This document shows, piece by piece, positions 12,201 through 36,799 of a stretch of DNA of 64,000 nt. The notes beneath the pieces were generated by a model. It made no database searches, had not been told where the DNA came from, and saw only the letters and a list, made by a program, of their open reading frames with translations. Location of the stretch: positions 41,181-105,180 of the forward strand of contig JAUCBJ010009051.1 in the NCBI GenBank assembly GCA_032718475.1, written 5' to 3'. Numbering within the stretch: position 1 is the first letter of the stretch; each line of letters starts with the position of its first letter. Position numbers and translations under genes: made by a program. Origin of the DNA: Nemertoderma westbladi (taxonomy: Eukaryota; Animalia; Xenacoelomorpha).

Positions 12201-12666
12201 ACAACATAGGGCAGTCAGAACCCAGGTGTAACAGAGGGAAGTCAGAACCCAGGTATAACAGAGGGAAGTCAGGTACAACATAGGGCAGTCAGAACCCAGG
12301 TGTAACAGAGGGAAGTCAGAACTCAGGTACAACTGAGGGAAGTCAGGTACAACATAAGGCAGTCAGAACCCAGGTGTAACAGAGGGAAGTCAGAACCCAG
12401 GTATAACAGAGGGAAGTCAGGTACAACATAGGGCAGTCAGAACCCAGGTGTAACAGAGGGAAGTCAGAACACAGGTATAACAGAGGGAAGTCAGAACCCA
12501 GGTATAACAGAGGGAAGTCAGAACCCAGGTACAACAGAGGGAAGTCAGAACACAGGTATAACAGAGGGAAGTCAGAACCCAGGTACAACAGAGGGAAGTC
12601 AGAACCCAGGTATAACAGAGGGAAGTCAGAACCCAGGTGTAAAAGAGGGAAGTCAGGTACAACATA
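6279..12666. repeat. 27-bp satellite, right block
   Basis: Same unit resumes after the LINE. Higher-order blocks of ~229 bp are visible at 11.7-12.2 kb (identical 72-aa pseudo-ORFs at 11737 and 11966). Confidence 0.98.
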
Positions 12667-13007: not shown

Positions 13008-13791
13008 TTAATAAAAGATACGGATAGAGTTTCTTGCATTGTTAGAGACCCCGGCCTTATTTCTGATTTAATAAAAGATACGGATAGAGTTTCTTGCATT
13101 GTTAGAGACCCCGGCCTTATTTCTGATTTAATAAAAGATACGGATAGAGTTTCTTGCATTGTTAGAGACCCCGGCCTTATTTCTGATTTAATAAAAGATA
13201 CGGATAGAGTTTCTTGCATTGTTAGAGACCCCGGCCTTATTTCTGATTTAATAAAAGATACGGATAGAGTTTCTTGCATTGTTAGAGACCCCGGCCTTAT
13301 TTCTGATTTAATAAAAGATACGGTTAGAGTTTCTTGCATTGTTAGAGACCCCGGCCTTATTTCTGATTTAATAAAAGATACGGATAGAGTTTCTTGCATT
13401 GTTAGAGACCCCGGCCTTATTTCTGATTTAATAAAAGATACGGATAGAGTTTCTTGCATTGTTAGAGACCCCGGCCTTATTTCTGATTTAATAAAAGATA
13501 CGGTTAGAGTTTCTTGCATTGTTAGAGACCCCGGCCTTATTTCTGATTTAATAAAAGATACGGATAGAGTTTCTTGCATTGTTAGAGACCCCGGCCTTAT
13601 TTCTGATTTAATAAAAGATACGGATAGAGTTTCTTGCATTGTTAGAGACCCCGGCCTTATTTCTGATTTAATAAAAGATACGGATAGAGTTTCTTGCATT
13701 GTTAGAGACCCCGGCCTTATTTCTGATTTAATAAAAGATACGGATAGAGTTTCTTGCATTGTTAGAGACCCCGGCCTTATTTCTGATTTAA
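13008..13791. repeat. 60-bp minisatellite, 13 near-perfect copies bounded by TTAA
   Basis: Identical 60-nt lines from 13021 to 13790. The only variant is A>T in the copies at 13321 and 13501. Confidence 0.98.
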
Positions 13792-15638
<1,847 letters not shown>

Positions 15639-15780: not shown

Positions 15781-16070
15781 CTTTATTTGCAAACTAACAA
15801 AAAGTTAATTTTCTTCGCCACTAGGCCAGGGATTACGCACAAAGTCTGACGACTTATTTCCAATGGGGTACGGTCCCCCCAGAACTTTACTCCCCTGAAG
15901 AAACTCCAGTACTCATTTACCTACTACTTAAGGATTCAAGGCAGAGATGCGCCCTGCTGGTCCCTTCAAAGTATTCGTGCCGAAACGAAAACTTCCCTGG
16001 CCCTTGTGAGGATCGAACCCAAAACCTACAGAAGATGTGAATTCAATGCAACCACTACACCGAGGTGGAA
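15781..16070 (-). mobile_element. tRNA-derived SINE (putative)
   Basis: Minus strand has an A-box-like CGGTGTAGTGG (~16062-16052) and a B box GGTTCGATCC (16019-16010), followed by a ~230-nt non-tRNA body ending near AAATAAA. Boundaries are approximate. Confidence 0.6.
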
Positions 16071-16233
16071 CCTGGTGTGATTTGTTTGTTGGTGTGATCA
16101 GTAAAATTTCAGGGCGAAATGTTTATTAATTCGTAATTAACTAATGAATATATGACGTATTAATTATAATATTAAGGTGGGATATAAGGGTCTAGGCCGT
16201 CTCACCGGTCATATAAAGTATTCTCACCCGTCA

Positions 16234-16452
<219 letters not shown>

Positions 16453-16586
16453 CTACAGGAGATAAACACCATATTTAGAGGTCTAGAGGCCACACCACAC
16501 CACCCCCGAGACCCATTGTGTCTACGGTGCTATGACAACGCAGGTTGTTCGCAGGAATAAAGTAGTACAAGGTATTTCAATGCTAC

Positions 16587-17745
16587 TTAACCCTATTACC
16601 ACTGGGGGGGGGGGGGGGGGGGGCGAATCGGCCCCTTCCTAGTTTTTAGTTGCTGTAACTATGCAACCACATTACGTACCGGCCCAATTTTTTGTGAGAA
16701 TTAGCCAAATTTAATGCCGCATCTTTTGCAAAAAACGCCGTTGCAATTGGATTTCTACTTTTCGATGTGGGTGCCACCACAAAATTTGGTCTACAGCACC
16801 AAATTTTTTGAAATTTTCGAATTTTACAAAGTCATTCGTGATTTAGTAATTATTTATGTTTGGGCTATTTTTATTTATTTTTATTGGTTTGGATCACTCT
16901 AATGCTCTATACAAGTACGTAAGTGTAGTGGTTCGCCATTTTTGGTGCACCAAAATTAGGGCGTGGCACTTCAAATTTTGAAAAATACGAGATTCGGAAA
17001 ATTCACTAAAGTTTTGATTTCAAATTAATTTTATAGGTTTTCTGGAGCGCTGAATCGATTGAAAGTATTATAGAAGCATCAAATCCTTTGTGTACGTAAT
17101 TTTCGGTGCACCAAAATTAGGGCGTGGCACTTCAAATTTTCAAAATTACTTTATTCGGAAAAAACACTATAAAGTTTTGATTTCAAAAAATGGCTAACTT
17201 CTAAGTCTTCAGGCTTCTATATTACTTTCAATCGATTCAGCGGTCTGGAAAACCTATATAAATTCGTTAAAATTTAAATTTGGGTTTATTTTCCGAATCT
17301 CGTATTTTTCAAAATTTGAAGTGCCACGCCCTAATTTTGGTGCACCAAAAATGGCGAACCACTCAGTCTTCAGGCTTCTATATTACTTTCAATCGATTCA
17401 GCGGCCCAGAAAACCCATAAAGATGCGTTGAAATAAAAAAATTAGGGGCATTTTCTGAATATCTAATTTTTCAAAATTTGAAGTGCCACGCCCACTTCTT
17501 AGGTGCACGAAAAATAGCATCCACTTTTTTGGAAGTGGAATATAATCACATTCGATTCAGCGTCTTGAAAAACCTACTAAATCTAGCCAACACTGCCACA
17601 CTATTAGTTTTTAGAAAACGAAAAATTTTGTAATTTTGTCCTGGGACTACTTTTATTTTTCATCAAAATTATGAGTCCCTGCTTATGAAATATTAATTTT
17701 TTAAGGTTTGGTAGTGTTCATCTATAATTACCATGGAAGTTAGCA
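16587..17745. mobile_element. Non-autonomous DNA-transposon-like (MITE/foldback) sequence with internal direct and inverted repeats
   Basis: Starts TTAACCCT followed by a poly-G run (piggyBac-type end). A module containing GGTGCACCAAAATTAGGGCGTGGCACTTCAAATTT occurs twice forward (~16940, ~17100) and twice inverted (~17315, ~17475). No matching right TIR was found. Confidence 0.55.
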
Positions 17746-17754
17746 CCTAGCAGT

Positions 17755-20700
17755 TTGCAGGACCACTATTGTCTGTGTCTTAAACAACTAGCATCATTAA
17801 TACACAGATTACAGAAGATGGGCATTTTACAAAGATATCATGACGTCATAACGGATCATCTTTCCAAAGGCTATATCGAACCAGTAGATCATAGGGAACC
17901 AATAAGTAAGGATCAAGTAGCACATTACATTCCACATCATGGGGTGTTGAGAGAAACTCGATTAAGCACAAAATTAAGAGTTGTATTTAATGCATCAGCT
18001 AGAACATTTCCTACCGACCTATCATTGAATGATTGTTTAGAATCTGGCTCGCATTTATTTCCAAATTTGTGTCATTCATTGCTACACTTCAGGCTTCACA
18101 GCATAGGAATCACTGCCGATATTGAACAAGCCTTCCTACGCTGCCAGGTAAATGAAAATGATCAAAACTGTTTACGTTTTTTGTGGATTAAAAGCTGCTC
18201 AGGCATTGTTATTGAAGAAGCAAACATACAGGCATATCGATACACAAGGGCTCTTTTTGGGCTCACTTGTTCACCTCATATTTTGGGAGGGATTGTAAAG
18301 CACCATTTGGACATAGAATCAGAAAGAACGGATCTACAACAGAGTGAAAGGGATGCTATTGAGAAGTTGCGTGAGATTCATGTGGACGATTTATGTTCAG
18401 GAGCCAATTCGGTAGAAGAAGGTAGATTGTTGCAAACAACATGCAAATCTATTTTAGGACGGGCGGGATTTAAAATTAGACGGTGGACCACAAATAGTTG
18501 TGAGTTACAAAGAATGTTTAATACAGTTGAAGAAAGGGCAAGCAACTGTAATAATCGCACAGCAGAAAGTATAATTGAGGAAGATCAATCATTTGCAAAA
18601 ACGAATCTCAGTTTATCACCACCTCAAACGAATACTGTAAGACGCGTGCTTGGTCAATGTTGGGATTTGTCAACAGATACACTTGGCTATGACGTTTTGC
18701 CAGTATATAGCTTTATTGCAACTCTCCCTTTAACAAAAAAAGTCATTCTTCAACTTTCAGCAAGGTTGTACGACCCTCTTGGTTTACTTTCACCATTTAC
18801 GGCTCAATTTAAGGTCATGTTTCAAGAACTTTGTAAGACTAAAGTAAGTTTAGAGTGGAATAGTCCATTACCAGATCATATGGTTAAGGTATTCAAGAAA
18901 TGGTTAGAAGATATACCTCATATAAATAATATAACTGTGCCACGATATCTATTTGACACTACAAGAGACATTGCTACGTTTGAAATACACGGATTCTCAG
19001 ACGCTAGCAAATATATTTATGCAGGTGTGGCATATATTCGCACAACTTACACAGATAACACATCAAGTGTGAAACTATTAGCATCGAAAGCAAAGGTTAA
19101 CCCAGTACCAAAAAAGGGAAACTCTTTGGGTACACCACGACTCGAACTCTTAGGAGCACTCATTATGATAAGATTAATTACATTTGTCAAACAAGGTCTA
19201 AAATTACCATGCAAAGTTTACTTGTGGTCAGATGCAGTAGATGTAATTTACTGGATAAAAGCGACTAGTTCAAACTGCAAACAGTGGGTTCAATCCAGGG
19301 TTACGGAGATACGTTCATTAACTCAACAATTGAAAGGCCAGTGGCGGTTTTGTCCAGGAATACAAAATCCGGCCGACTTACCCACAAGAGGTATGACAGT
19401 AGAACAACTCATAAAGGCAACTACTTGGTTCAATGGCCCAAAGTTCTTAAGCGCAGAAGAGGAAACTTGGCCGAACAAATTAGTTATAGATCCAATAGAG
19501 GTATCCCAAGATTGTCTAAAGGAATTCAAATCATCCATTGTAGCTGTTACGACCATTAAATCACCCGATGAAGTTATTAGCAATTGTTTCCCATACTCCA
19601 ATTATAGCAATCATACTGTAATTATACGAAAGCTTGCGTGGGTGCTCAGGTTTGTGAGCAACATTCGAGCTAGCATACACAAACATCCGCTTTCCCTAAG
19701 TGTAGTTCCTTCGGCAGAAGAAATGACTCAAGCGGAAATTACACTACTTCGAATGATACAATTAGAACATTATAAACCAGAATTAGAATACTTGCAACAA
19801 CCGAAACGTGGTCGATGTCCAAACATTATTAAGCAATTAAACTTATTTATTGACCACCAAGGTGTATTACGCTCCAAAGGTAGAGCACAGACCCCATACT
19901 TAACATGGCAGGCTCAAAATCCAATACTACTCCCACCGAAAGATCATTTCACTAAGCTAGTAATTTTAAATGCTCATCATAAAGTTATGCATTCACGTGT
20001 AAGAGACACGCTGGTACAAATACGGGAAAGATATTGGATCCCCCGAGCGCGTCAAGTCATTAAGAATGTTTTACGAAACTGTGTAACCTGTAAAAGAACA
20101 CAAGGCAGACCTTATACAAAACAGGAAACAAGTCCTTTGCCCATTGAACGCATGACTATCGACACAAGTCCCTTTACTAATGTCGGGATAGATTTTGCAG
20201 GACCAGTGATGGCAGTTAGATCTCTTTCCGATCCGATCGGTTCAACATTTAAGGTTTATATATGTCTGTTCACTTGTGTCGTAGTAAGAGCAGTGCACTT
20301 GGAACTCGTGACCAGCTTAAGTGTTGCAGCATTTATCAGTGCATTCCGACGATTTATAGCAAGACGTGGAGTTCCAGCATTAATTTTTAGTGACAATGCT
20401 TCTACATTCAAACGATCAGCAGCAGATATCAAACTGTATAACAAATTTCTTGACAGTGACATAGTACGCAAGGAGTTTGGAGAACTCTTAACAAAATGGG
20501 TATTTAATGTAGAACGCTACCCGGCGGCATATGGCTTTATAGAGCGTTTGGTCGGTGTGACCAAAGGAGTTCTTCGCAAGACGTTAGGGAGAGCAGTTTT
20601 AACTGAAGAGGAAATTCGTACTGTACTTACATCATGTGAGGCAGTTGTTAATAGCAGACCACTAACCTTTATTTATAGCGACAGCAAAGAAAATTACCAG

Positions 20701-21291
20701 ATATTGACACCCAGCCATTTCTTGGTAGGAAAAAGACTTTGTGCACTTCCATCCCCTACCGTAAAATCAATTAATCTAGATTTGTCTCGAACGAATCTTA
20801 TAAATCGACTTAAATATCAAGAAAGAGCGTCCAATTTATATTGGAAATTATTTCGTGAAGAATACGTCGCAGAACTTCGGCAACACCATCGTTCCCAAAA
20901 TCACAATAACAGGAACACAATCATCCCTAAGGTTGGAGATATGTGTTTACTTCTTGATGAAAAACTTCCAAGATGTCTCTGGAAGTTGTGTATGGTTAAC
21001 AAGTTGATAGTAAGTCGTGATGGAGTTATTCGCGCAATAACAGTAAATGTTGCTGAAAGAGGTCGGGAAGCAAGACTTCTTACTCGTTCCATACGTTATG
21101 TTATTCTATTGGAAATAACAGCGGACAAACCAACTGACACGACTATTAAACCAGATAAAGATAATCTCAAGCCAGTTCTTCCAGTAGAAAATAAGATAAC
21201 AAACGATGAGACAGCGATCATAACTGACAATTCTCGTCTTTCACGCTTGGCTAAGAGAAAAATAAAACCAGGATTTTACAATGCAAAATAA
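17755..21291 (+). CDS. BEL/Pao LTR retrotransposon pol (RT, RNase H, integrase), 5'-truncated
   Basis: Motifs YIPHHGV, LRVVFNAS, ADIEQAF, HVDD, HGFSDAS, PRLEL, NPADLPTRG, an HHCC zinc finger, DFAGP, SDNA and NSRPL in BEL/Pao domain order. No gag or protease; the TTG start is an artefact. Confidence 0.95.
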   Translation: MQDHYCLCLKQLASLIHRLQKMGILQRYHDVITDHLSKGYIEPVDHREPISKDQVAHYIPHHGVLRETRLSTKLRVVFNASARTFPTDLSLNDCLESGSHLFPNLCHSLLHFRLHSIGITADIEQAFLRCQVNENDQNCLRFLWIKSCSGIVIEEANIQAYRYTRALFGLTCSPHILGGIVKHHLDIESERTDLQQSERDAIEKLREIHVDDLCSGANSVEEGRLLQTTCKSILGRAGFKIRRWTTNSCELQRMFNTVEERASNCNNRTAESIIEEDQSFAKTNLSLSPPQTNTVRRVLGQCWDLSTDTLGYDVLPVYSFIATLPLTKKVILQLSARLYDPLGLLSPFTAQFKVMFQELCKTKVSLEWNSPLPDHMVKVFKKWLEDIPHINNITVPRYLFDTTRDIATFEIHGFSDASKYIYAGVAYIRTTYTDNTSSVKLLASKAKVNPVPKKGNSLGTPRLELLGALIMIRLITFVKQGLKLPCKVYLWSDAVDVIYWIKATSSNCKQWVQSRVTEIRSLTQQLKGQWRFCPGIQNPADLPTRGMTVEQLIKATTWFNGPKFLSAEEETWPNKLVIDPIEVSQDCLKEFKSSIVAVTTIKSPDEVISNCFPYSNYSNHTVIIRKLAWVLRFVSNIRASIHKHPLSLSVVPSAEEMTQAEITLLRMIQLEHYKPELEYLQQPKRGRCPNIIKQLNLFIDHQGVLRSKGRAQTPYLTWQAQNPILLPPKDHFTKLVILNAHHKVMHSRVRDTLVQIRERYWIPRARQVIKNVLRNCVTCKRTQGRPYTKQETSPLPIERMTIDTSPFTNVGIDFAGPVMAVRSLSDPIGSTFKVYICLFTCVVVRAVHLELVTSLSVAAFISAFRRFIARRGVPALIFSDNASTFKRSAADIKLYNKFLDSDIVRKEFGELLTKWVFNVERYPAAYGFIERLVGVTKGVLRKTLGRAVLTEEEIRTVLTSCEAVVNSRPLTFIYSDSKENYQILTPSHFLVGKRLCALPSPTVKSINLDLSRTNLINRLKYQERASNLYWKLFREEYVAELRQHHRSQNHNNRNTIIPKVGDMCLLLDEKLPRCLWKLCMVNKLIVSRDGVIRAITVNVAERGREARLLTRSIRYVILLEITADKPTDTTIKPDKDNLKPVLPVENKITNDETAIITDNSRLSRLAKRKIKPGFYNAK

Positions 21292-21568
21292 TTACATACA
21301 GTATTGAACAAATTCGAGTTGGATTATGTAACTTTATCATATATTTAGTGAATAATTGTGTTCTACTTAGTATTATACAAGTAAGATTATTGTTTATATA
21401 GCGGAAACGTATGTAAGTTTATGTAGTACTGTAAATGAAAATTACTTTCAATTTACAATTATGTACTGTAGAATTTATTTATTGTGTTGAGGGATAAATC
21501 ATATCAGTACAGTAGTGTTATGTAATTATTTTATTGATTTAGATTTTGCATGATATGCAAGGGAGGAG

Positions 21569-21850
21569 TGTCGTGCAATATATTATTTTATCCACTTATG
21601 AGATCATACCTCACACTTACATTAATTGATTTACTGTGCAAACAATATGATACAAGTTACAGTACCACTTTATGTGCCAACATGTGTTCGACTCATACTA
21701 TAATTAATTTGATATATGAAGTATTGTGGTGACGGGATTTGTGTAGATTAATTAACATTTATATTATCAAGAAAACAGTAAAGTTTTACATTAAAAGATC
21801 ATTTTCCATTACAACCAAGTAATTGGTTGATACTTGATACATGTACGACA
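21569..21850 (+). mobile_element. 3' LTR of the BEL/Pao element (282 bp)
   Basis: Polypurine tract AAGGGAGGAG (21559-21568) directly precedes TGTCGTGCA. The segment ends TGTACGACA (8/9 inverted termini, TG...CA) and abuts the 20-bp satellite. Confidence 0.85.
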
Positions 21851-22395
21851 ACTGCAGTGTACTTTACTTTACTGCAGTGTACTTTACTTTACTGCAGTGT
21901 ACTTTATTTTACTGCAATGTACATCACTTTACTGCAGTGTACTTTACTTTACTGCAGTGTTCTTTACCTTACTCCCAGTGTACATTACTTTACTGCAGTG
22001 TACTTTACTTTAAGGCAGTGTACTTTACTTTACTTCAGTGTACTTTACTTTACTGCAGTGTACTTTACTTTACTGCAGTGTACTTTACATTACAGCAGTG
22101 TACTTTACTTTACTGCAGTGTACTTTACTTTACTGCAGTGTACTTTACTTTACTGCAGTGTACTTTACTTTACTGCAGTGTACTTTACTTTACTGCAGTG
22201 TACTTTACTTTACTGCAGTGTACTTTACTTTACTGCAGTGTACTTTACTTTACTGCAGTGTACTTTACTTTACTGCAGTGTACTTTACTTTACTGCAGTG
22301 TACTTTACTTTACTGCAGTGTACTTTATTTTACTGCAATGTACATTACTTTACTGCAGTGTACTTTACTTTACTGCAGTGTACTTTACCTACTGC
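21851..22395. repeat. 20-bp satellite (ACTGCAGTGTACTTTACTTT), small block
   Basis: About 27 tandem copies. Confidence 0.97.
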
Positions 22396-23167
22396 TTAAG
22401 GAACGACTATCTCCCCCAGAAGTCTCAGCAGTTTCTCAAATGTCAGCTAATTTTATTTCAAACACTTTTTCAATACCAGGTGTATCTTTTCGTTCAAAGC
22501 ATAAGCACATAAAAGAATATTTCAGAATATTTGAATTATGAGATATGATAGCCTGTGAATTTTCCATTTTAAGTTGCATTATGTCGCGCACTTAGTAGCC
22601 TATTTTGTTATGTAAACCAAGTAGATTACACTGTACTTGTGCAGTTTCTAGATCTAAGGAGATTTACCCTCTGTATTTTCGCGATCTTGGGTTCCATACA
22701 GTATGTCGTGCATTTTAGCGGTAGGAGACTACCCACCCAGTACCCAGTGCAGATTTCTCGGGTTTCTAAATGTAAATCTAGTAGGAGTCTACCCAGTACC
22801 CAGTGCAGATTTCTCGATTTTGATCGTGTTATGTTTGATTTTGTTTGATTCAATTGTTTAATTTTAAACCTAGCAGGATTTTAGTACACGAGGTCTATTA
22901 TATATCCTGATATTTGTGGTTTTAATGTCACTTCACAATTAGGGTAGTGAAAAGACGTGATGCTTTTTGGTTTTGGGTGCATTTAGAATGCCGTGCTGTG
23001 TAACCCCATTTAACGGTAACTTACCTACCATTTTATTACTGTACATTTTAACCTTCACTTTCAATGCGGTTTTAATGTTTTGATGATTTTTAAGTTTTTA
23101 CTGTTTGAATAAATGCCAGCTAGACTGGTGCTGCGCGCGTTTGCGCGATAATCTAAAAAATCTAATC
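22396..23167. other. Unique ~770-bp interruption of the 20-bp satellite, probably a non-autonomous transposon remnant
   Basis: Begins TTAAGG. Contains an internal direct repeat TAGGAG..CCCAGTACCCAGTGCAGATTTCTCG (~22722, ~22782). No coding similarity recognised and no paired TIR seen. Confidence 0.35.
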
Positions 23168-26100
23168 TTACTCCCAGTGTACATTACTTTACTGCAGTGT
23201 ACTTTACTTTAAGGCAGTGTACTTTACTTTACTTCAGTGTACTTTACTTTACTGCAGTGTACTTTACTTTACTGCAGTGTACTTTACTTTACAGCAGTGT
23301 AATTTACTTTACTGCAGTGTACTTTACTTTACTGCAGTGTACTTTACTTTACTGCAGTGTACTTTACTTTACTGCAGTGTACTTTACTTTACTGCAGTGT
23401 ACTTTACTTTACTGCAGTGTACTTTACTTTACTGCAGTGTACTTTACTTTACAGCAGTGTACTTTACTTTACTGCAGTGTACTTTACTTTACTGCAGTGT
23501 ACTTTACTTTACAGCAGTGTACTTTACTTTACTACAGTGCACTTTACTTTACTGCAGTGTACTTTACTTTACTGCAGTGTACTTTACTTTACTGCAGTGT
23601 ACATTACTTTACTGCAGTGTACTTTACTTTACAGCAGTGTACTTTACTTTACTGCAGTGTACTTTACTTTACTGCAGTGTACTTTACTTTACAGCAGTGT
23701 ACTTTACTTTACTACAGTGCACTTTACTTTACTGCAGTGTACTTTACTTTACTGCAGTGTACTTTACTTTACTGCAGTGTACATTACTTTACTGCAGTGT
23801 ACTTTACTTTACAGCAGTGTACTTTACTTTACAGCAGTGTACTTTACTTTACTGCAGTGTACTTTACTTTACTACAGTGCACTTTACTTTACTGCAGTGT
23901 ACTTTACTTTACTGCAGTGTAGTTTACTTTACTGCAGTGTACTTTACTTTACTGCAGTGTACTTTACTTTACTGCAGTGTACTTTACTTTACTGCAGTGT
24001 ACTTTACTTTACTGCAGTGTACTTTACTTTACTGCAGTGTACTTTACTTTACTGCAGTGTACTTTACTTTACTGCAGTGTACTTTACTTTACTGCAGTGT
24101 ACTTTACTTTACTGCAGTGTACTTTACTTTACTGCAGTGTACTTTACTTTACTGCAGTGTACTTTACTTTACTGCAGTGTACTTTACTTTACTGCAGTGT
24201 ACTTTACTTTACTGCAGTGTACTTTACTTTACTGCAGTGTACTTTACTTTACTGCAGTGTACTTTACTTTACTGCAGTGTACTTTACTTTACTGCAGTGT
24301 ACTTTACTTTACTGCAGTGTACTTTACTTTACTGCAGTGTACTTTACCTTACTCCCAGTGTACATTACTTTACTGCAGTGTACTTTACTTTACTGCAGTG
24401 TATCTTTACCTTACTCCCAGTGTACATTACTTTACTGCAGTGTACTTTACTTTACTGCAGTGTACTTTACTTTACTTCAGTGTACTTTACTTTACTGCAG
24501 TGTACTTTACTTTACTGCAGTGTACTTTACTTTACAGCAGTGTACTTTACTTTACTGCAGTGTACTTTACTTTACTGCAGTGTACTTTACTTTACTGCAG
24601 TGTACTTTACTTTACTGCAGTGTACTTTACTTTACTGCAGTGTACTTTACTTTACTGCAGTGTACTTTACTTTACTGCAGTGTACTTTACTCTTACTCCG
24701 CAGTGTACTTTACTTTACTGCGGTGTACTTTACTTTACTGCAGTGTACTTTACTTTACAGCAGTGTACTTTACTTTACTGCAGTGTACTTTACTTTACTT
24801 CAGTGTACTTTACTTTACAGCAGTGTACTTTACTTTACTGCAGTGTACTTTACTTTACAGCAGTGTACTTTACTTTACTGCAGTGCACTTTACTTTACAG
24901 CAGTGTACTTTACTTTACTGCAGTGTACTTTACCTTACTCCCAGTGTACATTACTTTACTGCAGTGTACTTTACTTTACTGCAGTGTATTTTACCTTACT
25001 CCCAGTGTACATTACTTTACTGCAGTGTACTTTACTTTACTGCAGTGTACTTTACTTTACTGCAGTGCACTTTACTTTACTGCAGTGTACTTTACTTTAC
25101 AGCAGTGTACTTTACTTTACAGCAGTGTACTTTACTTTACAGCAGTGTACTTTACTTTACTGCAGTGTACTTTACTTTACTGCAGTGTACTTTACTTTAC
25201 TGCAGTGTACTTTACTTTACTGCAGTGTACTTTACTTTACTGCAGTGTACTTTACTTTACTGCAGTGTACTTTACTTTACTGCAGTGTACTTTACTTTAC
25301 AGCAGTGTACTTTACTTTACTGCAGTGTACTTTACTTTACTTCAGTGTACTTTACTTTACAGCAGTGTACTTTACTTTACTGCAGTGTACTTTACTTTAC
25401 AGCAGTGTACTTTACTTTACTGCAGTGCACTTTACTTTACAGCAGTGTACTTTACTTTACTGCAGTGTACTTTACCTTACTCCCAGTGTACATTACTTTA
25501 CTGCAGTGTACTTTACTTTACTGCAGTGTATTTTACCTTACTCCCAGTGTACATTACTTTACTGCAGTGTACTTTACTTTACTGCAGTGTACTTTACTTT
25601 ACTTCAGTGTACTTTACTTTACTGCAGTGTACTTTACTTTACTGCAGTGTACTTTACTTTACTGCAGTGCACTTTACTTTACTGCAGTGTACTTTACTTT
25701 ACTGCAGTGTACTTTACTTTACTGCAGTGTACTCTACTTTACTTCAGTGTACTTTACTTTACTGCAGTGTACTTTACTTTACTGCAGTGTACTTTACTTT
25801 ACTGCAGTGTACTTTACTTTACTGCAGTGTACATTACCTTACTGCAGTGTACATTACTTTACTGCAGTGTACTTTACCTTACTCCCAGTGTACATTACTT
25901 TACTGCGGTGTACTTTACTTTACTGCAGTGTACTTTACTTTACAGCAGTGTACTTTACTTTACTGCAGTGTACTTTACTTTACTTCAGTGTACTTTACTT
26001 TACAGCAGTGTACTTTACTTTACTGCAGTGTACTTTACTTTACAGCAGTGTACTTTACTTTACTGCAGTGCACTTTACTTTACAGCAGTGTACTTTACTT

Positions 26101-29100
26101 TACTGCAGTGTACTTTACCTTACTCCCAGTGTACATTACTTTACTGCAGTGTACTTTACTTTACTGCAGTGTATTTTACCTTACTCCCAGTGTACATTAC
26201 TTTACTGCAGTGTACTTTACTTTACTGCAGTGTACTTTACTTTACTGCAGTGCACTTTACTTTACTGCAGTGTACTTTACTTTACAGCAGTGTACTTTAC
26301 TTTACAGCAGTGTACTTTACTTTACAGCAGTGTACTTTACTTTACAGCAGTGTACTTTACTTTACTGCAGTGTACTTTACTTTACTGCAGTGTACTTTAC
26401 TTTACTGCAGTGTACTTTACTTTACTGCAGTGTACTTTACTTTACTGCAGTGTACTTTACTTTACTGCAGTGTACTTTACTTTACAGCAGTGTACTTTAC
26501 TTTACTGCAGTGTACTTTACTTTACTGCAGTGTACTTTACTTTACTGCAGTGTACTTTACTTTACTGCAGTGTACTTTACTTTACTGCAGTGTACTTTAC
26601 TTTACTGCAGTGTACTTTACTTTACTGCAGTGTACTTTACTTTACAGCAGTGTACTTTACTTTACAGCAGTGTACTTTACTTTACTGCAGTGTACTTTAC
26701 TTTACTGCAGTGTACTTTACTTTACTGCAGTGTACTTTACCTTACTGCAGTGTACTTTACTTTACTGCAGTGTACATTACTTTACTGCGGTGTACTTTAC
26801 TTTACTGCAGTGTACTTTACTTTACAGCAGTGTACTTTACTTTACTGCAGTGTACTTTACTTTACTGCAGTGCACTTTACTTTACTTCAGTGCACTTTAC
26901 TTTACTGCAGTGTACTTTACTTTACTGCAGTGTACTTTACTTTACTGCAGTGTACTTTACTTTACTTCAGTGTACTTTACTTTACAGCAGTGTACTTTAC
27001 TTTACTGCAGTGCACTTTACTTTACTTCAGTGCACTTTACTTTACAGCAGTGTACTTTACTTTACTGCAGTGTACTTTACTTTACTGCAGTGTACTTTAC
27101 TTTACTGCAGTGTACTTTACTTTACTGCAGTGTACTTTACTTTACTGCAGTGTACTTTACTTTACAGCAGTGTACTTTACTTTACTGCAGTGTACTTTAC
27201 TTTACAGCAGTATACTTTACTTTACTGCAGTGTACTTTACTTTACTGCAGTGTACTTTACTTTACTGCAGTGTACTTTACTTTACTGCAGTGTACTTTAC
27301 TTTACTACAGTGTACTTTACTTTACAGCAGTGTACTTTACTTTACAGCAGTGTACTTTACTTTACTGCAGTGTACTTTACTTTACTGCAGTGTACTTTAC
27401 TTTACTGCAGTGTACTTTACTTTACAGCAGTGTACTTTACTTTACTTCAGTGTACTTTACTTTACTGCAGTGTACTTTACTTTACTGCAGTGTACTTTAC
27501 CTTACTGCTGTGTACTTTACTTTACTGCAGTGTACTTTACTTTACTGCAGTGTACTTTACTTTACTGCAGTGTACTCTACTTGACTTCAGTGTACTTTAC
27601 TTTACTGCAGTGTACATTACTTTACTGCAGTGTACTTTACCTTACTCCCAGTGTACTTTACTTTGCTGCAGTGTACTTTACTTTACTGCAGTGTACTTTA
27701 CTTTACTTCAGTGTACTTTACTTTACTTCAGTGTACTTTACTTTACTGCAGTGTACTTTACTTTACTTCAGTGTACTTTACCTTACTGCAGTGTACATTA
27801 CTTTACTGCAGTGTACTTTACCTTACTCCCAGTGTACATTACTTTACTGCGGTGTACTTTACTTTACTGCAGTGTACTTTACTTTACAGCAGTGTACTTT
27901 ACTTTACTGCAGTGTACTTTACTTTACTTCAGTGTACTTTACCTTACTGCAGTGTACATTACTTTACTGCAGTGTACTTTACCTTACTCCCAGTGTACAT
28001 TACTTTACTGCGGTGTACTTTACTTTACTTCAGTGCACTTTACTTTACTGCAGTGTACTTTACTTTACTGCAGTGTACTTTACTTTACTGCAGTGTACTT
28101 TACCTTACTCCCAGTGTACTTTACTTTGCTGCAGTGTACTTTACTTTACTGCAGTGTACTTTACTTTACTTCAGTGTACTTTACTTTACTTCAGTGTACT
28201 TTACTTTACTGCAGTGTACTTTACTTTACTTCAGTGTACTTTACCTTACTGCAGTGTACATTACTTTACTGCAGTGTACTTTACCTTACTCCCAGTGTAC
28301 ATTACTTTACTGCGGTGTACTTTACTTTACTGCAGTGTACTTTACTTTACAGCAGTGTACTTTACTTTACTGCAGTGTACTTTACTTTACTTCAGTGTAC
28401 TTTACCTTACTGCAGTGTANNNNNNNNNNNNNNNNNNNNNNNNNNNNNNNNNNNNNNNNNNNNNNNNNNNNNNNNNNNNNNNNNNNNNNNNNNNNNNNNN
28501 NNNNNNNNNNNNNNNNNNNATTACTTTACTGCAGTGTACTTTACCTTACTCCCAGTGTACATTACTTTACTGCGGTGTACTTTACTTTACTTCAGTGCAC
28601 TTTACTTTACTGCAGTGTACTTTACTTTACTGCAGTGTACTTTACTTTACTGCAGTGTACTTTACCTTACTCCCAGTGTACATTACTTTACTGCGGTGTA
28701 CTTTACTTTACTTCAGTGCACTTTACTTTACTGCAGTGTACTTTACTTTACTGCAGTGTACTTTACCTTACTGCAGTGTACTTTACCTTACTGCAGTGTA
28801 CTTTACTTTACTGCAGTGTACTTTACTTTACTGCAGTGTACTTTACTTTACTTCAGTGTACTTTACCTTACTGCAGTGTACATTACTTTACTGCAGTGTA
28901 CTTTACCTTACTCCCAGTGTACATTACTTTACTGCGGTGTACTTTACTTTACTTCAGTGCACTTTACTTTACTGCAGTGTACTTTACTTTACTGCAGTGT
29001 ACTTTACTTTACTGCAGTGTACTTTACTTTACTGCAGTGTACTTTACCTTACTGCAGTGTACTTTACCTTACTGCAGTGTACTTTACTTTACTGCAGTGT

Positions 29101-29691
29101 ACTTTACTTTACTGCAGTGTACTTTACTTTACTGCAGTGCACTTTACTTTACTGCAGTGTACTTTACTTTACTGCAGCGTACTTTACTTTACTGCAGTGT
29201 ACTTTACTTTACTGCAGTGTACTTTACTTTACTGCAGTGTACTTTACCTTACTGCAGTGTACTTTACTTTACTGCAGTGTACTTTACTTTACAGCAGTGT
29301 ACTTTACTTTACTGCAGTGTACTTTACTTTACTTCAGTGTACTTTACTTTACTTCAGTGTACTTTACTTTACTGCAGTGTACTTTACTTTACTGCAGTGT
29401 ACTTTACTTTACAGCAGTGTACTTTACTTTACTGCAGTGTACTTTACTTTACTGCAGTGTACTTTACTTTACTGCAGTGTACTTTACATTACTGCAGTGT
29501 ACTTTACTTTACAGCAGTGTACTTTACTTTACTGCAGTGTACTTTACTTTACTGCAGTGTACTTTACTTTACTGCAGTGCACTTTACTTTACTTCAGTGC
29601 ACTTTACTTTACTGCAGTGTACTTTACTTTACTGCAGTGTACTTTACTTTACTGCAGTGTACTTTACTTTACTGCAGTGTACTTTACTTAC
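23168..29691. repeat. 20-bp satellite, main block, beginning exactly at the CK2-alpha donor site
   Basis: More than 300 tandem copies with 21-bp variants (CCTTACTCCCAG). Includes an assembly gap. Confidence 0.98.
28420..28519. other. Assembly gap (100 N)
   Basis: Run of N. The true array and intron length is unknown. Confidence 0.99.
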
Positions 29692-29802
29692 CTTTAGCAA
29701 CTCGTGTAAATAAAATCGAATGTCAAAGTCTGAAAGTGTCTGATAAAGTTGCTTGAAATCGTTGTTATTTACGTTTTCGAAAATTAACGCCGGTGTCCTC
29801 GA
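29692..29802 (-). CDS. CSNK2A1: Casein kinase II alpha, internal exon ([37 protein letters not shown])
   Basis: 111 nt, acceptor CCTTTTAG, donor GTAAGT. Continues in phase 0 from ...VKDPV and matches the CK2-alpha hinge region S106-K142. Confidence 0.96.
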
Positions 29803-29855
29803 CTAAAAGGATATTAAATAATTAAAAAACTAAAAATATGAAGTTATAAATAAAT

Positions 29856-29919
29856 TTAAAGATCCAGTGGTGAGTAGACCTAATGTTATCATTATGTCTA
29901 CTCACCGCTGGATCTTTAA
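29856..29919. repeat. Inverted repeat (30-bp arms, 4-nt loop, 2 mismatches) capping the 51/56-bp array
   Basis: TTAAAGATCCAGTGGTGAGTAGACCTAATG-TTAT-CATTATGTCTACTCACCGCTGGATCTTTAA. Confidence 0.92.
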
Positions 29920-32900
29920 CAACAGCCTGTAACTGTATAACATTAGGTCTCCTCTACTCACCGCTGGATCTTTAACAACAGCCTGTAACTGTATAACATT
30001 AGGTCTCCTCTACTCACCGCTGGATCTTTAACAACAGCCTGTAACTGTATAACATTAGGTCTACTCACCAGTGGATCTTTAACAACAGCCTGTAACTGTA
30101 TAACATTAGGTCTCCTCTACTCACCACTGGATCTTTAACAACAGCCTGTAACTGTATAACATTAGGTCTACTCACCACTGGATCTTTAACAACAGCCTGT
30201 AACTGTATAACATTAGGTCTCCTCTACTCACCACTGGATCTTTAACAACAGCCTGTAACTGTATAACATTAGGTCTCCTCTACTCACCGCTGGATCTTTA
30301 ACAACAGCCTGTAACTATATAACATTAGGTCTACTCACCAGTGGATCTTTAACAACAGCCTGTAACTGTATAACATTAGGTATCCTCTACTCACCACTGG
30401 ATCTTTAACAACAGCCTGTAACTGTATAACATTAGGTCTACTCACCACTGGATCTTTAACAACAGCCTGTAACTGTATAACATTAGGTCTACTCACCACT
30501 GGATCTTGAACAACAGCCTGTAACTGTATAACATTAGGTCTACTCACCACTGGATCTTTAACAACAGCCTGTAACTGTATAACATTAGGTCTGCTCACCA
30601 CTGGATCTTTAACAACAGCCTGTAACTGTATAACATTAGGTCTACTCACCACTGGATCTTTAACAACAGCCTGTAACTGTATACCATTAGGTCTACTCAC
30701 CACTGGATCTTTAACAACAGCCTGTAACTGTATAACATTAGGTATCCTCTACTCACCACTGGATCTTTAACAACAGCCTGTAACTGTATAACATTAGGTC
30801 TAGTCTACTCACCACTGGATCTTTAACAACAGCCTGTAACTGTATAACATTAGGTCTCCTCTACTCACCACTGGATCTTTAACAACAGCCTGTAACTGTA
30901 TAACATTAGGTCTCCTCTACTCACCACTGGATCTTTAACAACAGCCTGTAACTGTATAACATTAGGTCTCCTCTACTCACCACTGGATCTTTAACAACAG
31001 CCCGTAACTGTATAACATTAGGTCTAGTCTACTCACCACTGGATCTTTAACAACAGCCTGTAACTGTATAACATTAGGTCTAGTCTACTCACCACTGGAT
31101 CTTTAACAACAGCCTGTAACTGTATAACATTAGGTCTCCTCTACTCACCACTGGATCTTTAACAACAGCCTGTAACTGTATAACATTAGGTATACGCTAC
31201 TCACCACTGGATCTTTAACAACAGCCTGTAACTGTATAACATTAGGTCTACTCACCACTGGATCTTTAACAACAGCCTGTAACTGTATACCATTAGGTCT
31301 ACTCACCACTGGATCTTTAACAACAGCCTGTAACTGTATAACATTAGGTCTCCTCTACTCACCAGTGGATCTTTAACAACAGCCTGTAATGGTATAACAT
31401 TAGGTCTAGTCTACTCACCACTGGATCTTTAACAACAGCCTGTAACTGTATAACATTAGGTCTAGTCTACTCACCACTGGATCTTTAACAACAGCCTGTA
31501 ACTGTATAACATTAGGTCTCCTCTACTCACCACTGAATCTTTAACAACAGCCTGTAACTGTATAACATTAGGTCTCCTCTACTCACCACTGGATCTTTAA
31601 CTACAGCCTGTAACTGTATAACATTAGGTCTCCTCTACTCACCACTGGATCTTTAACTACAGCCTGTAACTGTATAACATTAGGTCTCCTCTACTCCCCA
31701 CTGGATCTTTAACAACAGCCTGTAACTGTATAACATTAGGTCTACTCACCACTGGATCTCCAACAACAGCCTGTAACTGTATAACAATAGGTATACTCAC
31801 CACTGGATCTTTAACAACAGCCTGTAACTGTATAACAATAGGTCTACTCACCACTGGATCTTTAACAACAGCCTGTAACTGTATAACATTAGGTCTCCTC
31901 TACTCCCCACTGGATCTTTAACAACAGCCTGTAACTGTATAACATTAGGTCTACTCACCACTGGATCTCCAACAACAGCCTGTAACTGTATAACAATAGG
32001 TATACTCACCACTGGATCTTTAACAACAGCCTGTAACTGTATAACATTAGGTCTACTCACCACTGGATCTTTAACAACAGCCTGTAACTGTATAACATTA
32101 GGTCTCCTCTACTCACCACTGGATCTTTAACAACAGCCTGTAACTGTATAACATTAGGTCTCCTCTACTCACCACTGGATCTTTAACAACAGCCTGTAAC
32201 TGTATACCATTAGGTCTACTCTACTCACCACTGGATCTTTAACAACAGCCTGTAACTGTATAACATTAGGTCTCCTCTACTCACCACTGGATCTTTAACA
32301 ACAGCCTGTAACTGTATAACATTAGGTTACTCACCACTGGATCTTTAACAACAGCCTGTAACTGTATAACATTAGGTCTCCTCTACTCACCACTGGATCT
32401 TTAACAACAGCCTGTAACTGTATAACATTAGGTCTACTCACCACTGGATCTTTAACAACAGCCTGTAACTGTATAACATTAGGTCTACTCACCACTGGAT
32501 CTTTAACAACAGCCTGTAACTGTATAACATTAGGTCTCCTCTACTCACCACTGGATCTTTAACAACAGCCTGTAACTGTATAACATTAGGTCTCCTCTAC
32601 TCACCACTGGATCTTTAACAACAGCCTGTAACTGTATAACATTAGGTCTCCTCTACTCACCACTGGATCTTTAACAACAGCCTGTAACTGTATAACATTA
32701 GGTCTACTCACCACTGGATCTTTAACAACAGCCTGTAACTGTATAACATTAGGTCTCCTCTACTCACCACTGGATCTTTAACAACAGCCTGTAACTGTAT
32801 AACATTAGGTCTACTCACCACTGGATCTTTAACAACAGCCTGTAACTGTATAACATTAGGTCTACTCACCACTGGATCTTTAACAACAGCCTGTAACTGT

Positions 32901-33761
32901 ATAACATTAGGTCTCCTCTACTCACCACTGGATCTTTAACAACAGCCTGTAACTGTATAACATTAGGTCTACTCACCACTGGATCTTTAACAACAGCCTG
33001 TAACTGTATAACATTAGGTCTACTCACCACTGGATCTTTAACAACAGCCTGTAACTGTATAACATTAGGTCTACTCACCACTGGATCTTTAACAACAGCC
33101 TGTAACTGTATAACATTAGGTATAGTCTACTCACCACTGGATCTTTAACAACAGCCTGTGACTGTATAACATTAGGTCTAGTCTACTCACCACTGGATCT
33201 TTAACAACAGCCTGTGACTGTATAACATTAGGTCTAGTCTACTCCCCACTGGATCTTTAACAACAGCCTGTAACTGTATGACATTAGGTCTCCTCTACTC
33301 ACCACTGGATCTTTAACAACAGCCTGTAACTGTATAACATTAGGTCTACTCACTACTGGATCTTTAACAACAGCCTGTAACTGTATAACATTAGGTCTCC
33401 TCTACTCACCACTGGATCTTTAACAACAGCCTGTAACTGTATAACATTAGGTCTACTCACCACTGGATCTTTAACAACAGCCTGTAACTGTATAACATTA
33501 GGTCTACTCACCACTGGATCTTTAACAACAGCCTGTGACTGTATAACATTAGGTCTAGTCTACTCACCACTGGATCTTTAACAACAGCCTGTGACTGTAT
33601 AACATTAGGTCTAGTCTACTCCCCACTGGATCTTTAACAACAGCCTGTAACTGTATAACATTAGGTCTCCTCTACTCACCACTGGATCTTTAACAACAGC
33701 CTGTAACTGTATAACATTAGGTCTACTCACCACTGGATCTTTAACAACAGCCTGTAACTGT
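29890..33761 (-). repeat. 51/56-bp satellite derived from the CK2-alpha exon 3' end plus donor site, distal block (~70 copies)
   Basis: Minus-strand unit CCTAATGTTATACAGTTACAGGCTGTTGTTAAAGATCCAGTG|GTGAGTAGA(GGAGA or CTAGA), which reads [14 protein letters not shown] followed by the 5' splice site. Confidence 0.97.
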
Positions 33762-36187
33762 CCTGTAACGCCCTCGCGTCAGCAGATGATAGTGGCAATG
33801 GTGGAATTGGTCTATTGATGAATCCAACTGCACATGCAGCATTGGACAAAATAGACCAAATCTCTAACCGCATCATCCGTTGCCACTTCTCATGTTCTGG
33901 AAGACTGGCTAAGAAGTTTCCTAAGGTGGTTCTGATTGTGTGCTACTCTCCAACTAGTGTTGCCCCTGTAGAGGAGGTGGAAAATTTCTACCACAATCTA
34001 CAAGCAGCAACTGATGGAGTGGATCAGCATGCATTCTTAACATTCCTGGGAGACTTTAATGCAAGTCTGCATCAATCACCTACATCGCCCTGGGCCTATA
34101 GCAATAGTGTTAACCGAAATTCTGTCCATCTTCAGGATTTTATCTCTGGAAATGGATTGTTTTCGGCTGGAACCCAGTTCAAGAAGCGAACTGGAAAGCT
34201 ATGGACTCATAGTGGACCCAGTGGTCACAAGTCCCAGATAGACCATATTCTGTTTCGTAGGAAATACAGGAGCTCTATACAAGACTGTAATGCATTTACA
34301 CTTCGACCCTTCTCCAGTGATCACCGCCTTATTGTGGCCAAGGTAAGACTTAGTCTGCGTGCTAGCAGAACAACGAAATCTGCCTTGCCACGGCATGACT
34401 GGTCCTCTCTGTTGGTCCTCTCTGCTTACTGGGCGGAAAAGCCAACCAACCACCAAGGTTAAGGCTGAATCACCAGCCGATCGCCTCAATGGTTGGAAAG
34501 CCCACTTTGAAAAGCTCCTCAATAATGACAGGGTATTGCCTGATAACTTTATAGAAGTAAAGGTGTCTGAGTCTGTACTCCCAGATATTCCCATTGGCGA
34601 TATCTCCTTTGCAGAAGTGAAGGCTGCTGCAAAGAGCATTAAGACCAATCGTGCCAGTGGAGTAGATGGTGTTCCCCCTGAGGTCTTTAAAATACCTGAG
34701 TGTTTAAAGCTCATCTATCCCATCATAGTAGACATGTACCGTACAACAAGAGTCCCACAAGAAATGAAAACAAATAAGTTGGTGCCAGTTCCCAAGAAGG
34801 GCAACCTAACACTCTATGGTTCTTTTCGGGGAATCTCATTGATCTCGATTGCTGCAAAGCTATACAATAGGATTCTATTAAATCGCATCAGGGATCCCAT
34901 TGAGAGACTGCTCCGTGGAAATCAGAATGGGTTCCGTAAAGGTCGTGGGACCATGGAGCCCATTTTGGCACTTAGAAGGATAATTGAAGAATTATCAAAA
35001 AAGAAAGACAGGCATCTGGCTGTTATCTTTGTTGACTTCTTCAAGGCCTTTGATTCAGTCTCTCGCTCACGTATGTTCAGCATACTTTCATTATATGGGA
35101 TTCCTGATGAAATTATTGCAGCAATCAGATCAGTATACGATGGTTCGACAACATTTGTGTCTACTGTTGACGGTGACACAGAACCATTTGAAGTGTTATG
35201 GGGCGTCCTCCAAGGAGACACACTTGCACCATTCTTGTTCATTATTGTGGTTGACTATGTTCTACGCATGTCCTTAGATCATCATAATGATGATGGGGTG
35301 ATGATAACTCCACCTACTGGCTCCAGAAGTCGAGGAAATCCTGCCAAGTACCTAACTGATCTAGACTTTGCTGATGACTTAGGAGTACTCTCAGAATCAT
35401 TAGAGGGAGCCCAGCGGCTCCTCAGCTCATTAGAACATGCTGCTTCTAGTGTTGGTCTTTTTATTAACTCCAGAAAGACCAAAATTCTGACAGTTAACTT
35501 TGAAAGTCCTCAGCACGTCTCTGATCGGATGAGCATAAGCTCAAAGGATGGTATGCTTGAGCATGTGGACGACTTCTGTTACCTGGGATCATGGATCCGG
35601 AAGTCAGGTGAGGACCTTCGAATACGTAAGGGAAAGGCATGGGCAGCCTTGAATAGGCTTTCCAGGATTTGGAAGTCACCTAGAATTAATCGGAAACTTC
35701 AGGTCCGATTATTCAGAGCAGCAGTAGTTCCAGTACTCCTCTACGGGAGTCCATGCTGGGCTCTAACTGCTGAGGACACCAAATCTCTGGATGGCACATT
35801 CACAAGAATGCTACGCCGGGTACATTGTGTCAAGTACAGTGCACACATCTCCAACCAGACACTATATAACATTGGAGGTGTCTCATTGGTTCCCCCAAGC
35901 TTGACACTAGAACAAAATCGCCTCCGCTTTGCAGGACATTGCTTTCGCCGTGAGGACCAGCCAGTGCATAATCTTGTACTTTGGCAGCCTCATGGAGTGA
36001 ATAAGCATGGTGGACAGCCCATGACTTTCTTGAGACGCATCTTAAAGGACACTGGCCTTAAAGATGCGGATGATCTAGCAAATGTCATGGGTGATAGGGA
36101 GTTGTGGCGGTGCAATTTTGTTGACAAGCCGGCACAGCATTCTTAAAATGCAGCTGCAATGCAGCATGCCGATCCTAGTAGTAGTAG
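33762..36187 (+). mobile_element. RTE-clade non-LTR retrotransposon, 5'-truncated, with an internal deletion/frameshift and a (TAG)n tail
   Basis: APE motifs (CYSPT, GDFNA, QIDHIL, SDH) in 33815..34462. RT motifs (QNGFRKGR, DFFKAFD, GVLQGDTLAP, FADD) in 34359..36146. Very short 3' UTR ending CTAGTAGTAGTAGTA. Confidence 0.93.
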
Positions 36188-36697
36188 TATAACATTAGGT
36201 CTCCTCTACTCACCACTGGATCTTTAACAACAGCCTGTAACTGTATAACATTAGGTCTACTCACCACTGGATCTTTAACAACAGCCTGTAACTGTATAAC
36301 ATTAGGTCTACTCACCACTGGATCTTTAACAACAGCCTGTAACTGTATAACAATAGGTCTCCTCTACTCACCACTGGATCTTTAACAACAGCTTGTAACT
36401 GTATAACAATAGGTCTACTCACCACTGGATCTTTAACAACAGCCTGTAACTGTATAACATTAGGTCTAGTCTACTCACCACTGGATCTTTAACAACAGCC
36501 TGTGACTGTATAACATTAGGTCTAGTCTACTCACCACTGGATCTTTAACAACAGCCTGTAACTGTATAACATTAGGTCTCCTCTACTCACCACTGGATCT
36601 TTAACAACAGCCTGTAACTGTATAACATTAGGTCTACTCACCACTGGATCTTTAACAACAGCTTGTAACTGTATAACATTAGGTCTCCTCTACTCAC
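36188..36697 (-). repeat. 51/56-bp exon+donor satellite, exon-proximal block (~9-10 copies)
   Basis: Same unit, contiguous with the real exon, whose last 42 nt form the terminal unit. Confidence 0.97.
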
Positions 36698-36799
36698 CAC
36701 TGGATCTTTAACAACAGCTTGTAACTGTATAACATTAGGTCCTCCACGTAAGTTCTCAAGAATTTTTATTTCACGTTTAATCTTCTTTTTATTTACTGG
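36698..36799 (-). CDS. CSNK2A1: Casein kinase II alpha, internal exon ([34 protein letters not shown])
   Basis: Manual translation of the minus strand: 102 nt, acceptor TTTGTTTTTAG, donor GTGAGT. Matches the CK2-alpha basic cluster/helix C region (human P72-V105). Not in the ORF track. The symbol denotes the CK2-alpha family; paralogue identity is not established. Confidence 0.96.

What the first reader, a model, noticed from the sequence alone, without database searches (positions are those of the whole stretch)
23168..29697. 20-bp satellite repeats the first 20 nt of the intron, with the donor disarmed
Seen: the intron begins AAG|GTAAGTAAAGTACACTGCA and continues as (GTAAAGTAAAGTACACTGCA)n, so the unit equals the donor region plus one A. 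Known: +5G is a key U1/U6 contact. The consensus repeat GTs read GTAAAG or GTACAC and lack +5G, leaving GTAAGT only at the true site; a minority GTAAGG variant does keep +5G. This is a second, independent donor-anchored array in the very next intron. Alternative: the array arose nearby and spread up to the donor, where selection stopped it.
Basis: partly seen in the sequence, partly recalled or inferred. Interest (0 to 1): 0.7.

Follow-up and report, generated by a model that had tools for sequence, protein, structure and literature searches.

The report
Minisatellite starting at a splice donor
A 20-base repeat copied over 300 times starts at the first base of an intron in an animal-type casein kinase 2 gene, and an assembled transcript-like sequence is spliced at the normal site; it likely grew in place from the intron's first bases and is an ordinary example of a repeat type already known from human and amphioxus genes.

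Summary
Observation confirmed. A CK2-alpha intron (29691-16453, minus strand) opens with a 19-nt unit, followed by about 320 copies of a 20-mer with one extra A. The array continues for 27 more units (22388-21851) beyond a 780-bp insertion. A spliced contig joins 29692 to 16452, so the true donor is used. Word depth in two DNA runs is only about 1.5x and 3.7x the window's own count, which argues against an abundant genome-wide satellite. 'Disarmed' is only partly right. Consensus GTs are weak, but no weaker than in shuffled units (26 of 47). The minority unit makes 32 AG|GTAA sites, 25 of which score above two of the gene's four real donors in a U1-pairing calculation. The neighbouring intron carries 68 intact donor copies. 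Best reading: a locus-born minisatellite seeded at the donor, with the extra-A unit spread by drift and the first donor chosen by position. Closest known: the human ABCA7 intron-18 VNTR; also F7 intron 7 and amphioxus 'mirages'. This scan noted the same kind in several other genomes. New member of a known kind; low interest.

The parts
29692..29802 (-). CK2-alpha coding exon (residues 106-142 equivalent), upstream of the array
   Evidence: phmmer to PDB, E 7.6e-16, full length; covered by the spliced contig
29673..29691 (-). True 5' splice site and first, 19-nt repeat unit
   Evidence: junction 29692|16452 in one 785-nt contig; best U1-pairing score of 1068 GT sites scanned
23169..29691 (-). 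Main 20-bp array, about 320 units, with higher-order variant blocks
   Evidence: 279 20-nt units average 97.6% identity to consensus
28420..28519 (.). 100-N assembly gap inside the array
22389..23168 (.). 780-bp non-repeat insertion splitting the array (likely a mobile-element fragment; class not identified); holds a strong donor-like site at 23024
   Evidence: no second copy in the window; variant order continues across it; one of its junctions is also in run X1
21851..22388 (-). Distal piece of the same array, 27 units
   Evidence: TRF; a rare variant occurs only at 22010 and 23209
17728..21850 (+). 3' part of a Pao/BEL LTR retrotransposon; its LTR (about 21569-21850) abuts the array's far end
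   Evidence: Pfam Peptidase_A17, Integrase_H2C2, DUF5641; LTR termini read
16258..16452 (-). Next CK2-alpha exon (143-207 equivalent); acceptor at 16453
29897..36741 (-). Context: 51/56-bp array in the preceding intron, copying the exon's 3' end plus an intact donor; split by a LINE (33762-36186)
36698..36799 (-). Preceding CK2-alpha exon
   Evidence: translation; loose end of the spliced contig

Best explanation
This is a 20-bp intronic tandem array whose first unit is the real splice donor; it likely arose in place by duplication of the intron's first ~19 bases and likely spread its extra-A unit by neutral repeat turnover, not by selection to disarm donors. Shown: the anchoring, the unit variants, the split by an insertion, the far end at an LTR, and splicing at 29691. 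Inferred: (1) slippage at a junction built of near-identical pentamers (TAAAG|GTAAG TAAAG) seeded the duplication; (2) internal units were amplified and homogenised while the boundary unit stayed fixed, because it is the donor; (3) the 8-bp palindrome in each unit may help slippage; (4) the real donor wins because it is the first and strongest site after the exon, as shown experimentally for human F7 intron 7; (5) rare use of internal sites would add a stop 15 codons into the intron, so such RNA would likely be degraded. The array is probably tolerated filler with no function.
For: Anchoring at +1. The intron position is shared with 8 of 79 CK2 loci from metagenome contigs (65 contiguous, many probably transcripts; 3 other gaps; 3 not scorable). 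Those introns are 34-1251 nt and none begins with this unit, so the intron predates the array. A spliced contig (785 nt, depth 1477.7) places 16452 next to 29692. Pure-array contig depth over single-copy depth is 185-219 in X3 and 493-546 in X2, against 118-149 such words in the window. The same calculation on the neighbour array gives 22 and 34 against 25 (rough). The neighbour array contains coding-exon sequence (score 46 of 50), which shows that junction duplication happens in this gene and that 68 intact donor copies are tolerated. There is no deficit of donor strength against shuffles. Precedent: the F7 abstract and introduction (PMC1557585); amphioxus boundary units escape homogenisation (PMC3087553 passages).
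Against: No ancestral, array-free allele or close relative was available, so the direction (19-mer first, 20-mer later) is not shown. Resemblance of the exon tail to the unit is weak (13 of 407, 38 of 400 and 27 of 400 null cases reach the score). Run X2 holds about 3.7x the window's count, which leaves room for a few other loci. One X2 contig joins 34 array-like letters to a flank not found in the window, though only at depth 4 against a single-copy depth of 28. Only 18 of 80 single-base insertions would remove GTAAGT, a mild hint of a filter. U1 energies are a crude stand-in for a species-trained donor model.
Confidence: 0.65

Rival explanations
1. The array was born further inside the intron, and a deletion later fused it to the donor hexamer, using the shared AAGT/GTAA letters; selection stopped the loss at the donor.
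For: The first unit reads equally well as GTAAGT plus the last 13 nt of a unit. Deletions occur here: the retrotransposon's 5' part is missing from the window, and no array units lie beyond it.
Against: It needs a second event and a unit that happens to resemble the donor in its first ten bases. The adjacent intron shows direct junction duplication. Repeat expansion adds internal copies and does not move an array's ends (established knowledge, recalled).
Confidence: 0.2
2. Selection filtered which unit could expand: an unchanged 19-mer would have multiplied GTAAGT sites, so only the extra-A, non-donor unit was tolerated.
For: The unchanged 19-mer in tandem scores -7.2 kcal/mol against -4.7 for the 20-mer, and 18 of 80 single insertions remove GTAAGT. 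There is no AG|GTAA site in the first 444 nt. Two other arrays in this gene are almost AG-free on the sense strand.
Against: 26 of 47 shuffled units with 3 GTs are as weak or weaker. 32 AG|GTAA sites have spread; 25 are AAG|GTAAAGTA at -7.9, against -5.6 and -6.7 for two real donors. A 444-nt site-free run follows 23% of random starts. The neighbouring intron tolerates 68 identical donor 9-mers.
Confidence: 0.1
3. The 20-mer is a dispersed satellite family and one block landed at this donor.
For: X2 word depth is 3.7-3.9x the window's count; one low-depth contig has a foreign flank.
Against: X3 is only 1.45-1.6x. An assembly gap inside the array and allele length differences can absorb the excess. 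A truly dispersed element in the next intron gives summed depths of 1e5 and more, with dozens of different flanks, whereas this array shows one foreign flank among the 7 loose ends listed for DNA runs.
Confidence: 0.05

Closest known systems
Human ABCA7 intron-18 VNTR (De Roeck et al. 2018, PMC5954066; passages read)
   Same: The array flanks the exon directly, its first two bases are the donor GT, the unit is short (25 bp) and the size is similar (12 to about 427 units).
   Different: In ABCA7 a cryptic donor one unit in is used and length affects splicing. Here the consensus unit differs from the first unit by one base and is a poor donor; no internal use was seen (contigs only).
Human F7 intron-7 37-bp VNTR, with 6-16, CBS, LMNB2 and PDGF as cited there (Borensztajn et al. 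2006, PMC1557585; abstract and introduction read)
   Same: A minisatellite at a donor, with the most upstream site used.
   Different: The F7 unit includes 4 exon bases, repeats an identical donor and has 5-9 copies. This unit starts at +1, does not repeat the full donor and has about 350 copies. The neighbouring 51/56-bp array is the closer match to F7.
Amphioxus 'mirage' minisatellites (Adh3, globins, PGBD5; PMC3087553 and PMC3902484 passages; the original 2002 paper was not held)
   Same: Several splice-boundary repeats in one invertebrate gene, units of 10-160 bp, not all keeping splice signals, normal splicing, boundary units escaping homogenisation.
   Different: Mirages span the boundary, and exon bases in this unit are not demonstrated. 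The arrays here are far longer (kilobases, against 3-6 units for the globin gene).
Satellite-filled giant introns of Drosophila Y genes (PMC6508621; search listing and start of abstract only)
   Same: Introns inflated by tandem repeats.
   Different: Megabase scale and testis-specific; by my recall they are made of abundant simple satellites, not units tied to the local splice site.

Membership tests
Donor-anchored intronic minisatellite (ABCA7 type) | First bases of the array are the used GT donor | tested here: met
Donor-anchored intronic minisatellite (ABCA7 type) | Head-to-tail units of minisatellite size, each beginning with GT | tested here: met
   (a few rare variants begin otherwise)
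Donor-anchored intronic minisatellite (ABCA7 type) | Confined to one locus | tested here: inconclusive
   depth 1.5x (X3) and 3.7x (X2) the window count, calibrator 0.9x and 1.3x; no genome held
Donor-anchored intronic minisatellite (ABCA7 type) | Variable copy number between alleles | tested here: inconclusive
   two samples differ about 2.5-fold in normalised depth, but library bias could do this
Donor-anchored intronic minisatellite (ABCA7 type) | Internal units used as cryptic donors (seen in ABCA7, not required of the class) | not testable with these tools
   only assembled contigs were available; they drop rare forms
'Mirage' / F7-type boundary-spanning repeat | Unit includes exon sequence across the boundary | tested here: inconclusive
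   exon-tail score reached by 13 of 407, 38 of 400 and 27 of 400 nulls; clearly met only by the neighbouring 51/56-bp array
'Mirage' / F7-type boundary-spanning repeat | Donor sequence reiterated identically in the copies (F7 definition) | tested here: not met
   GTAAGT occurs once within the repeats; not filed as F7-type
'Mirage' / F7-type boundary-spanning repeat | Normal splicing persists | tested here: met
Abundant genome-wide satellite DNA | Many thousands of copies, beyond one locus | tested here: not met
   about 190-550 copies of consensus words per single-copy depth (rough, from contig depth)
Intron created by tandem duplication of an AG|GT site | Novel intron position with repeat-derived ends | tested here: not met
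   same position in 8 of 79 other CK2 loci; the acceptor end is not repeat-derived

The most novel reading that the evidence does not exclude
In this genome, intron gigantism in an essential housekeeping gene is seeded by the splice signals themselves: donor regions and branch-point/pyrimidine tracts are each amplified into kilobase arrays, and a splicing filter decides which units may expand (donor-less units here; AG-free branch-point-plus-pyrimidine units in the 27-bp and 40-bp arrays). If this holds genome-wide, it is a rule for how satellites are born and a natural library for testing splice-site choice.
Probability: 0.15. Interest if true: 0.6.

Novelty: new member of a known kind. Interest (0 to 1): 0.22.

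Why it matters
On its own it matters little: donor-anchored minisatellites are described in human and amphioxus genes, and splicing here is normal. The locus is a convenient natural comparison, because adjacent introns of one conserved gene carry an array with 68 intact donor copies and an array with mostly dead ones. About 46 kb of the 64-kb window is tandem array. A genome-wide count could show whether such arrays are born at splice sites and filtered by splicing.

Tried and rejected
No whole genome was held, so the direct genome search for the 20-mer and a species-trained donor model could not be run. No RNA holder was listed. Run X4 is recorded as 'DNA?' and I infer it is a transcript library, because its contigs join exons; the one joint whose ends are printed has CT..AC ends. 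X4 has no cover on the 70 array bases laid, and its one listed loose end at the exon-3 acceptor is exon 2 (329 lesser rows not shown). Contigs drop rare forms, so this is no evidence against low-level cryptic use. The exon itself was not covered by X1-X3 contigs, so the exon-array junction was not seen in independent DNA. A two-unit pattern found 0 matches in metagenome contigs, which is uninformative for an animal. The idea that the unit derives from the exon tail plus donor was inconclusive. The idea that the intron was created by the repeat was rejected. Missing exons hidden in the gap were rejected: exons 106-142 and 143-207 are adjacent in the protein. No Rfam family in 15400-37600 and no tRNA in the window. 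The folding z-score of -3.4 is not used as evidence, since shuffles are an unfair control for a repeat with an internal palindrome. The organism's clade was not determined. Paper searches gave no listing that I could tie to this gene or genome; the library lacks most subscription papers, and no supplements were read.
Full report
Gene context. The window holds four exons of a casein kinase 2 alpha gene on the minus strand: 36799-36698, 29802-29692, 16452-16258 and 15638-15519. The second and third match human CK2-alpha 106-142 and 143-207 over their full length, so no exon is missing between them. The intron in question is 29691-16453 (13,239 nt). About 46 kb of the window is tandem array, with a different unit in nearly every intron. 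The repeats and the protein look animal-like (my inference); the clade was not determined.

The observation. The intron opens with a 19-nt unit and continues with a 20-nt unit carrying one more A. TRF reports 324.8 copies at 23175-29689 and 26.9 copies at 21851-22388. The core 13-mer occurs 343 times against 0.17 by chance, all between 21840 and 29700. The two pieces are one array: the order of rare variants runs on across the 780-bp insertion, and one rare variant occurs only at 22010 and 23209. The far end abuts the LTR of a truncated Pao/BEL element, so the original distal boundary is lost. A 100-N gap lies inside the array. If an array end were placed at random, landing in the first three bases would have a chance of roughly 0.5% for a 619-nt intron like the next one, and 0.2-9% for the orthologous lengths. 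This is my own after-the-fact arithmetic.

The donor is used. Run X4 is recorded as 'DNA?' but behaves like a transcript library (inferred). One 785-nt contig at depth 1477.7 covers 16351-16454 with its letters 1-104 and 29691-29803 with its letters 102-214. This puts 16452 next to 29692. Its other loose end matches the preceding exon's end. Another contig skips 15639-16257 with CT..AC ends. Contigs cannot exclude rare cryptic use.

One locus or many. No genome was held, so I used contig depth, which the tool warns is rough. Single-copy depth is 27.9-28.8 in X2 and 10.8 in X3. Pure-array contigs have depths of 14000-15500 and 2000-2361. That is 493-546 and 185-219 copies, against 118-149 such words in the window. 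The neighbouring array gives 34 and 22 against 25. X1 was left out of this count because no pure-consensus contig was listed for it. The excess (1.5x and 3.7x) fits a gap inside the array and allele differences. A few other loci are not excluded: one X2 contig has a foreign flank at depth 4. An abundant satellite is unlikely.

Is the donor disarmed? By duplex energy with a recalled U1 5'-end motif, the true donor is the best of 1068 GT sites in 29691-21851 (-12.2), and consensus-unit sites score -3.0 to -4.7. But shuffled units with three GTs are as weak or weaker in 26 of 47 cases. Among shuffles with any GT, 1605 of 1939 are as weak or weaker. [quoted passage not shown] There are 32 AG|GTAA sites, and the commonest (25 copies, -7.9) outscores two real donors of this gene (-5.6 and -6.7). 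None lies in the first 444 nt, but that holds after 1289 of 5534 random starts. In favour of a filter: an unchanged 19-mer would score -7.2, and only 18 of 80 single insertions remove GTAAGT. Against any need for one: the preceding intron has 68 extra copies of its donor 9-mer. Reading on into the array meets a stop 15 codons into the intron, so leakage would probably be degraded (inferred).

Origin. The intron position is old: 8 of 79 CK2 loci from metagenome contigs have a short intron at the same place, and none starts with this unit. The neighbouring array contains coding sequence (score 46 of 50), which proves that junction duplication occurs in this gene. For the 20-mer, a resemblance to the exon tail exists but is not significant enough (13 of 407, 38 of 400, 27 of 400). 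Local birth from the first intron bases is the simplest account (0.65). Deletion-fusion of a nearby array cannot be excluded without an ancestral allele (0.2). Selective disarming (0.1) and a dispersed satellite (0.05) are less likely.

Comparison with what is known. It works like the ABCA7 intron-18 VNTR, whose first two bases are the donor and which reaches about 427 units (PMC5954066 passages), and it meets the two structural features of that type that I could test. It is not F7-type, because the donor is not reiterated identically (PMC1557585 abstract and introduction). Strict 'mirage' membership is inconclusive, because exon bases in the unit are not shown (PMC3087553 and PMC3902484 passages). 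F7 supplies the mechanism for silence, a preference for the most upstream donor; its transfer to this organism is inferred. PMC10078293 (passages) shows that repeat effects on splicing are common in humans but adds nothing specific. Six earlier notes of this scan describe the same kind in other genomes. I had reached the F7 and mirage papers before seeing them, and they are not independent support.

Verdict. The feature is real and anchored at a used donor, probably at a single locus. 'Disarming' is descriptive, not demonstrated. New member of a known kind; interest 0.22. The boldest open reading is that splice signals seed, and splicing filters, kilobase arrays throughout this genome. It is prompted by the AG-free, pyrimidine-rich 27-bp and 40-bp arrays and has about a 0.15 probability.

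Noticed in passing
window 275-12656 and 37495-63965 (minus strand): The 27-bp and 40-bp arrays in two other introns of this gene are 71-76% pyrimidine on the sense strand, carry about one CTRAY per unit and almost no AG (observed/expected 0.08-0.12 and 0.00 in the stretches measured). They look like a branch point plus pyrimidine tract without an acceptor. Their anchoring cannot be judged in this window.
   Followed up: partly
window 29897-36741: The 51/56-bp array copies about 45 nt of coding exon plus an intact GTGAGT donor (69 copies of the 9-mer including the true one); the 51-bp unit would be in frame. A textbook 'mirage'.
   Followed up: partly
window 29856-29889: An inverted copy of the 51-bp unit ends that array and is predicted to form a long hairpin about 55 nt before the exon-2 acceptor.
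   Followed up: partly
window 4258-6293, 33758-36146, 41887-44618, 13938-15488: LINE-type reverse transcriptase ORFs sit inside three arrays, and one lies just after the donor at 15518.
   Followed up: partly
window 15822-16087: A very high-copy short interspersed element in the 619-nt intron (summed depth 1e5 and more, many flanks); no Rfam or tRNA match.
   Followed up: no
window 16587-17727: An element beginning TTAA-CCCT with internal inverted and direct repeats (16927-17525), resembling a piggyBac-type non-autonomous element (label recalled). It meets the truncated Pao element, which suggests a deletion that may also have removed the array's original far end.
   Followed up: no
window 16200-16241: A 22-bp duplication begins about 16 nt into the next intron; the raised depth there suggests it belongs to a small repeat family.
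   Followed up: no
window 29681-29716: The exon's last bases are predicted to pair with the donor region in the RNA; weak and untested.
   Followed up: no
window 13008-13791 and 3-272: Further unrelated arrays (60 bp and 24 bp) lie in the intron after 15519; the next exon lies outside the window.
   Followed up: no
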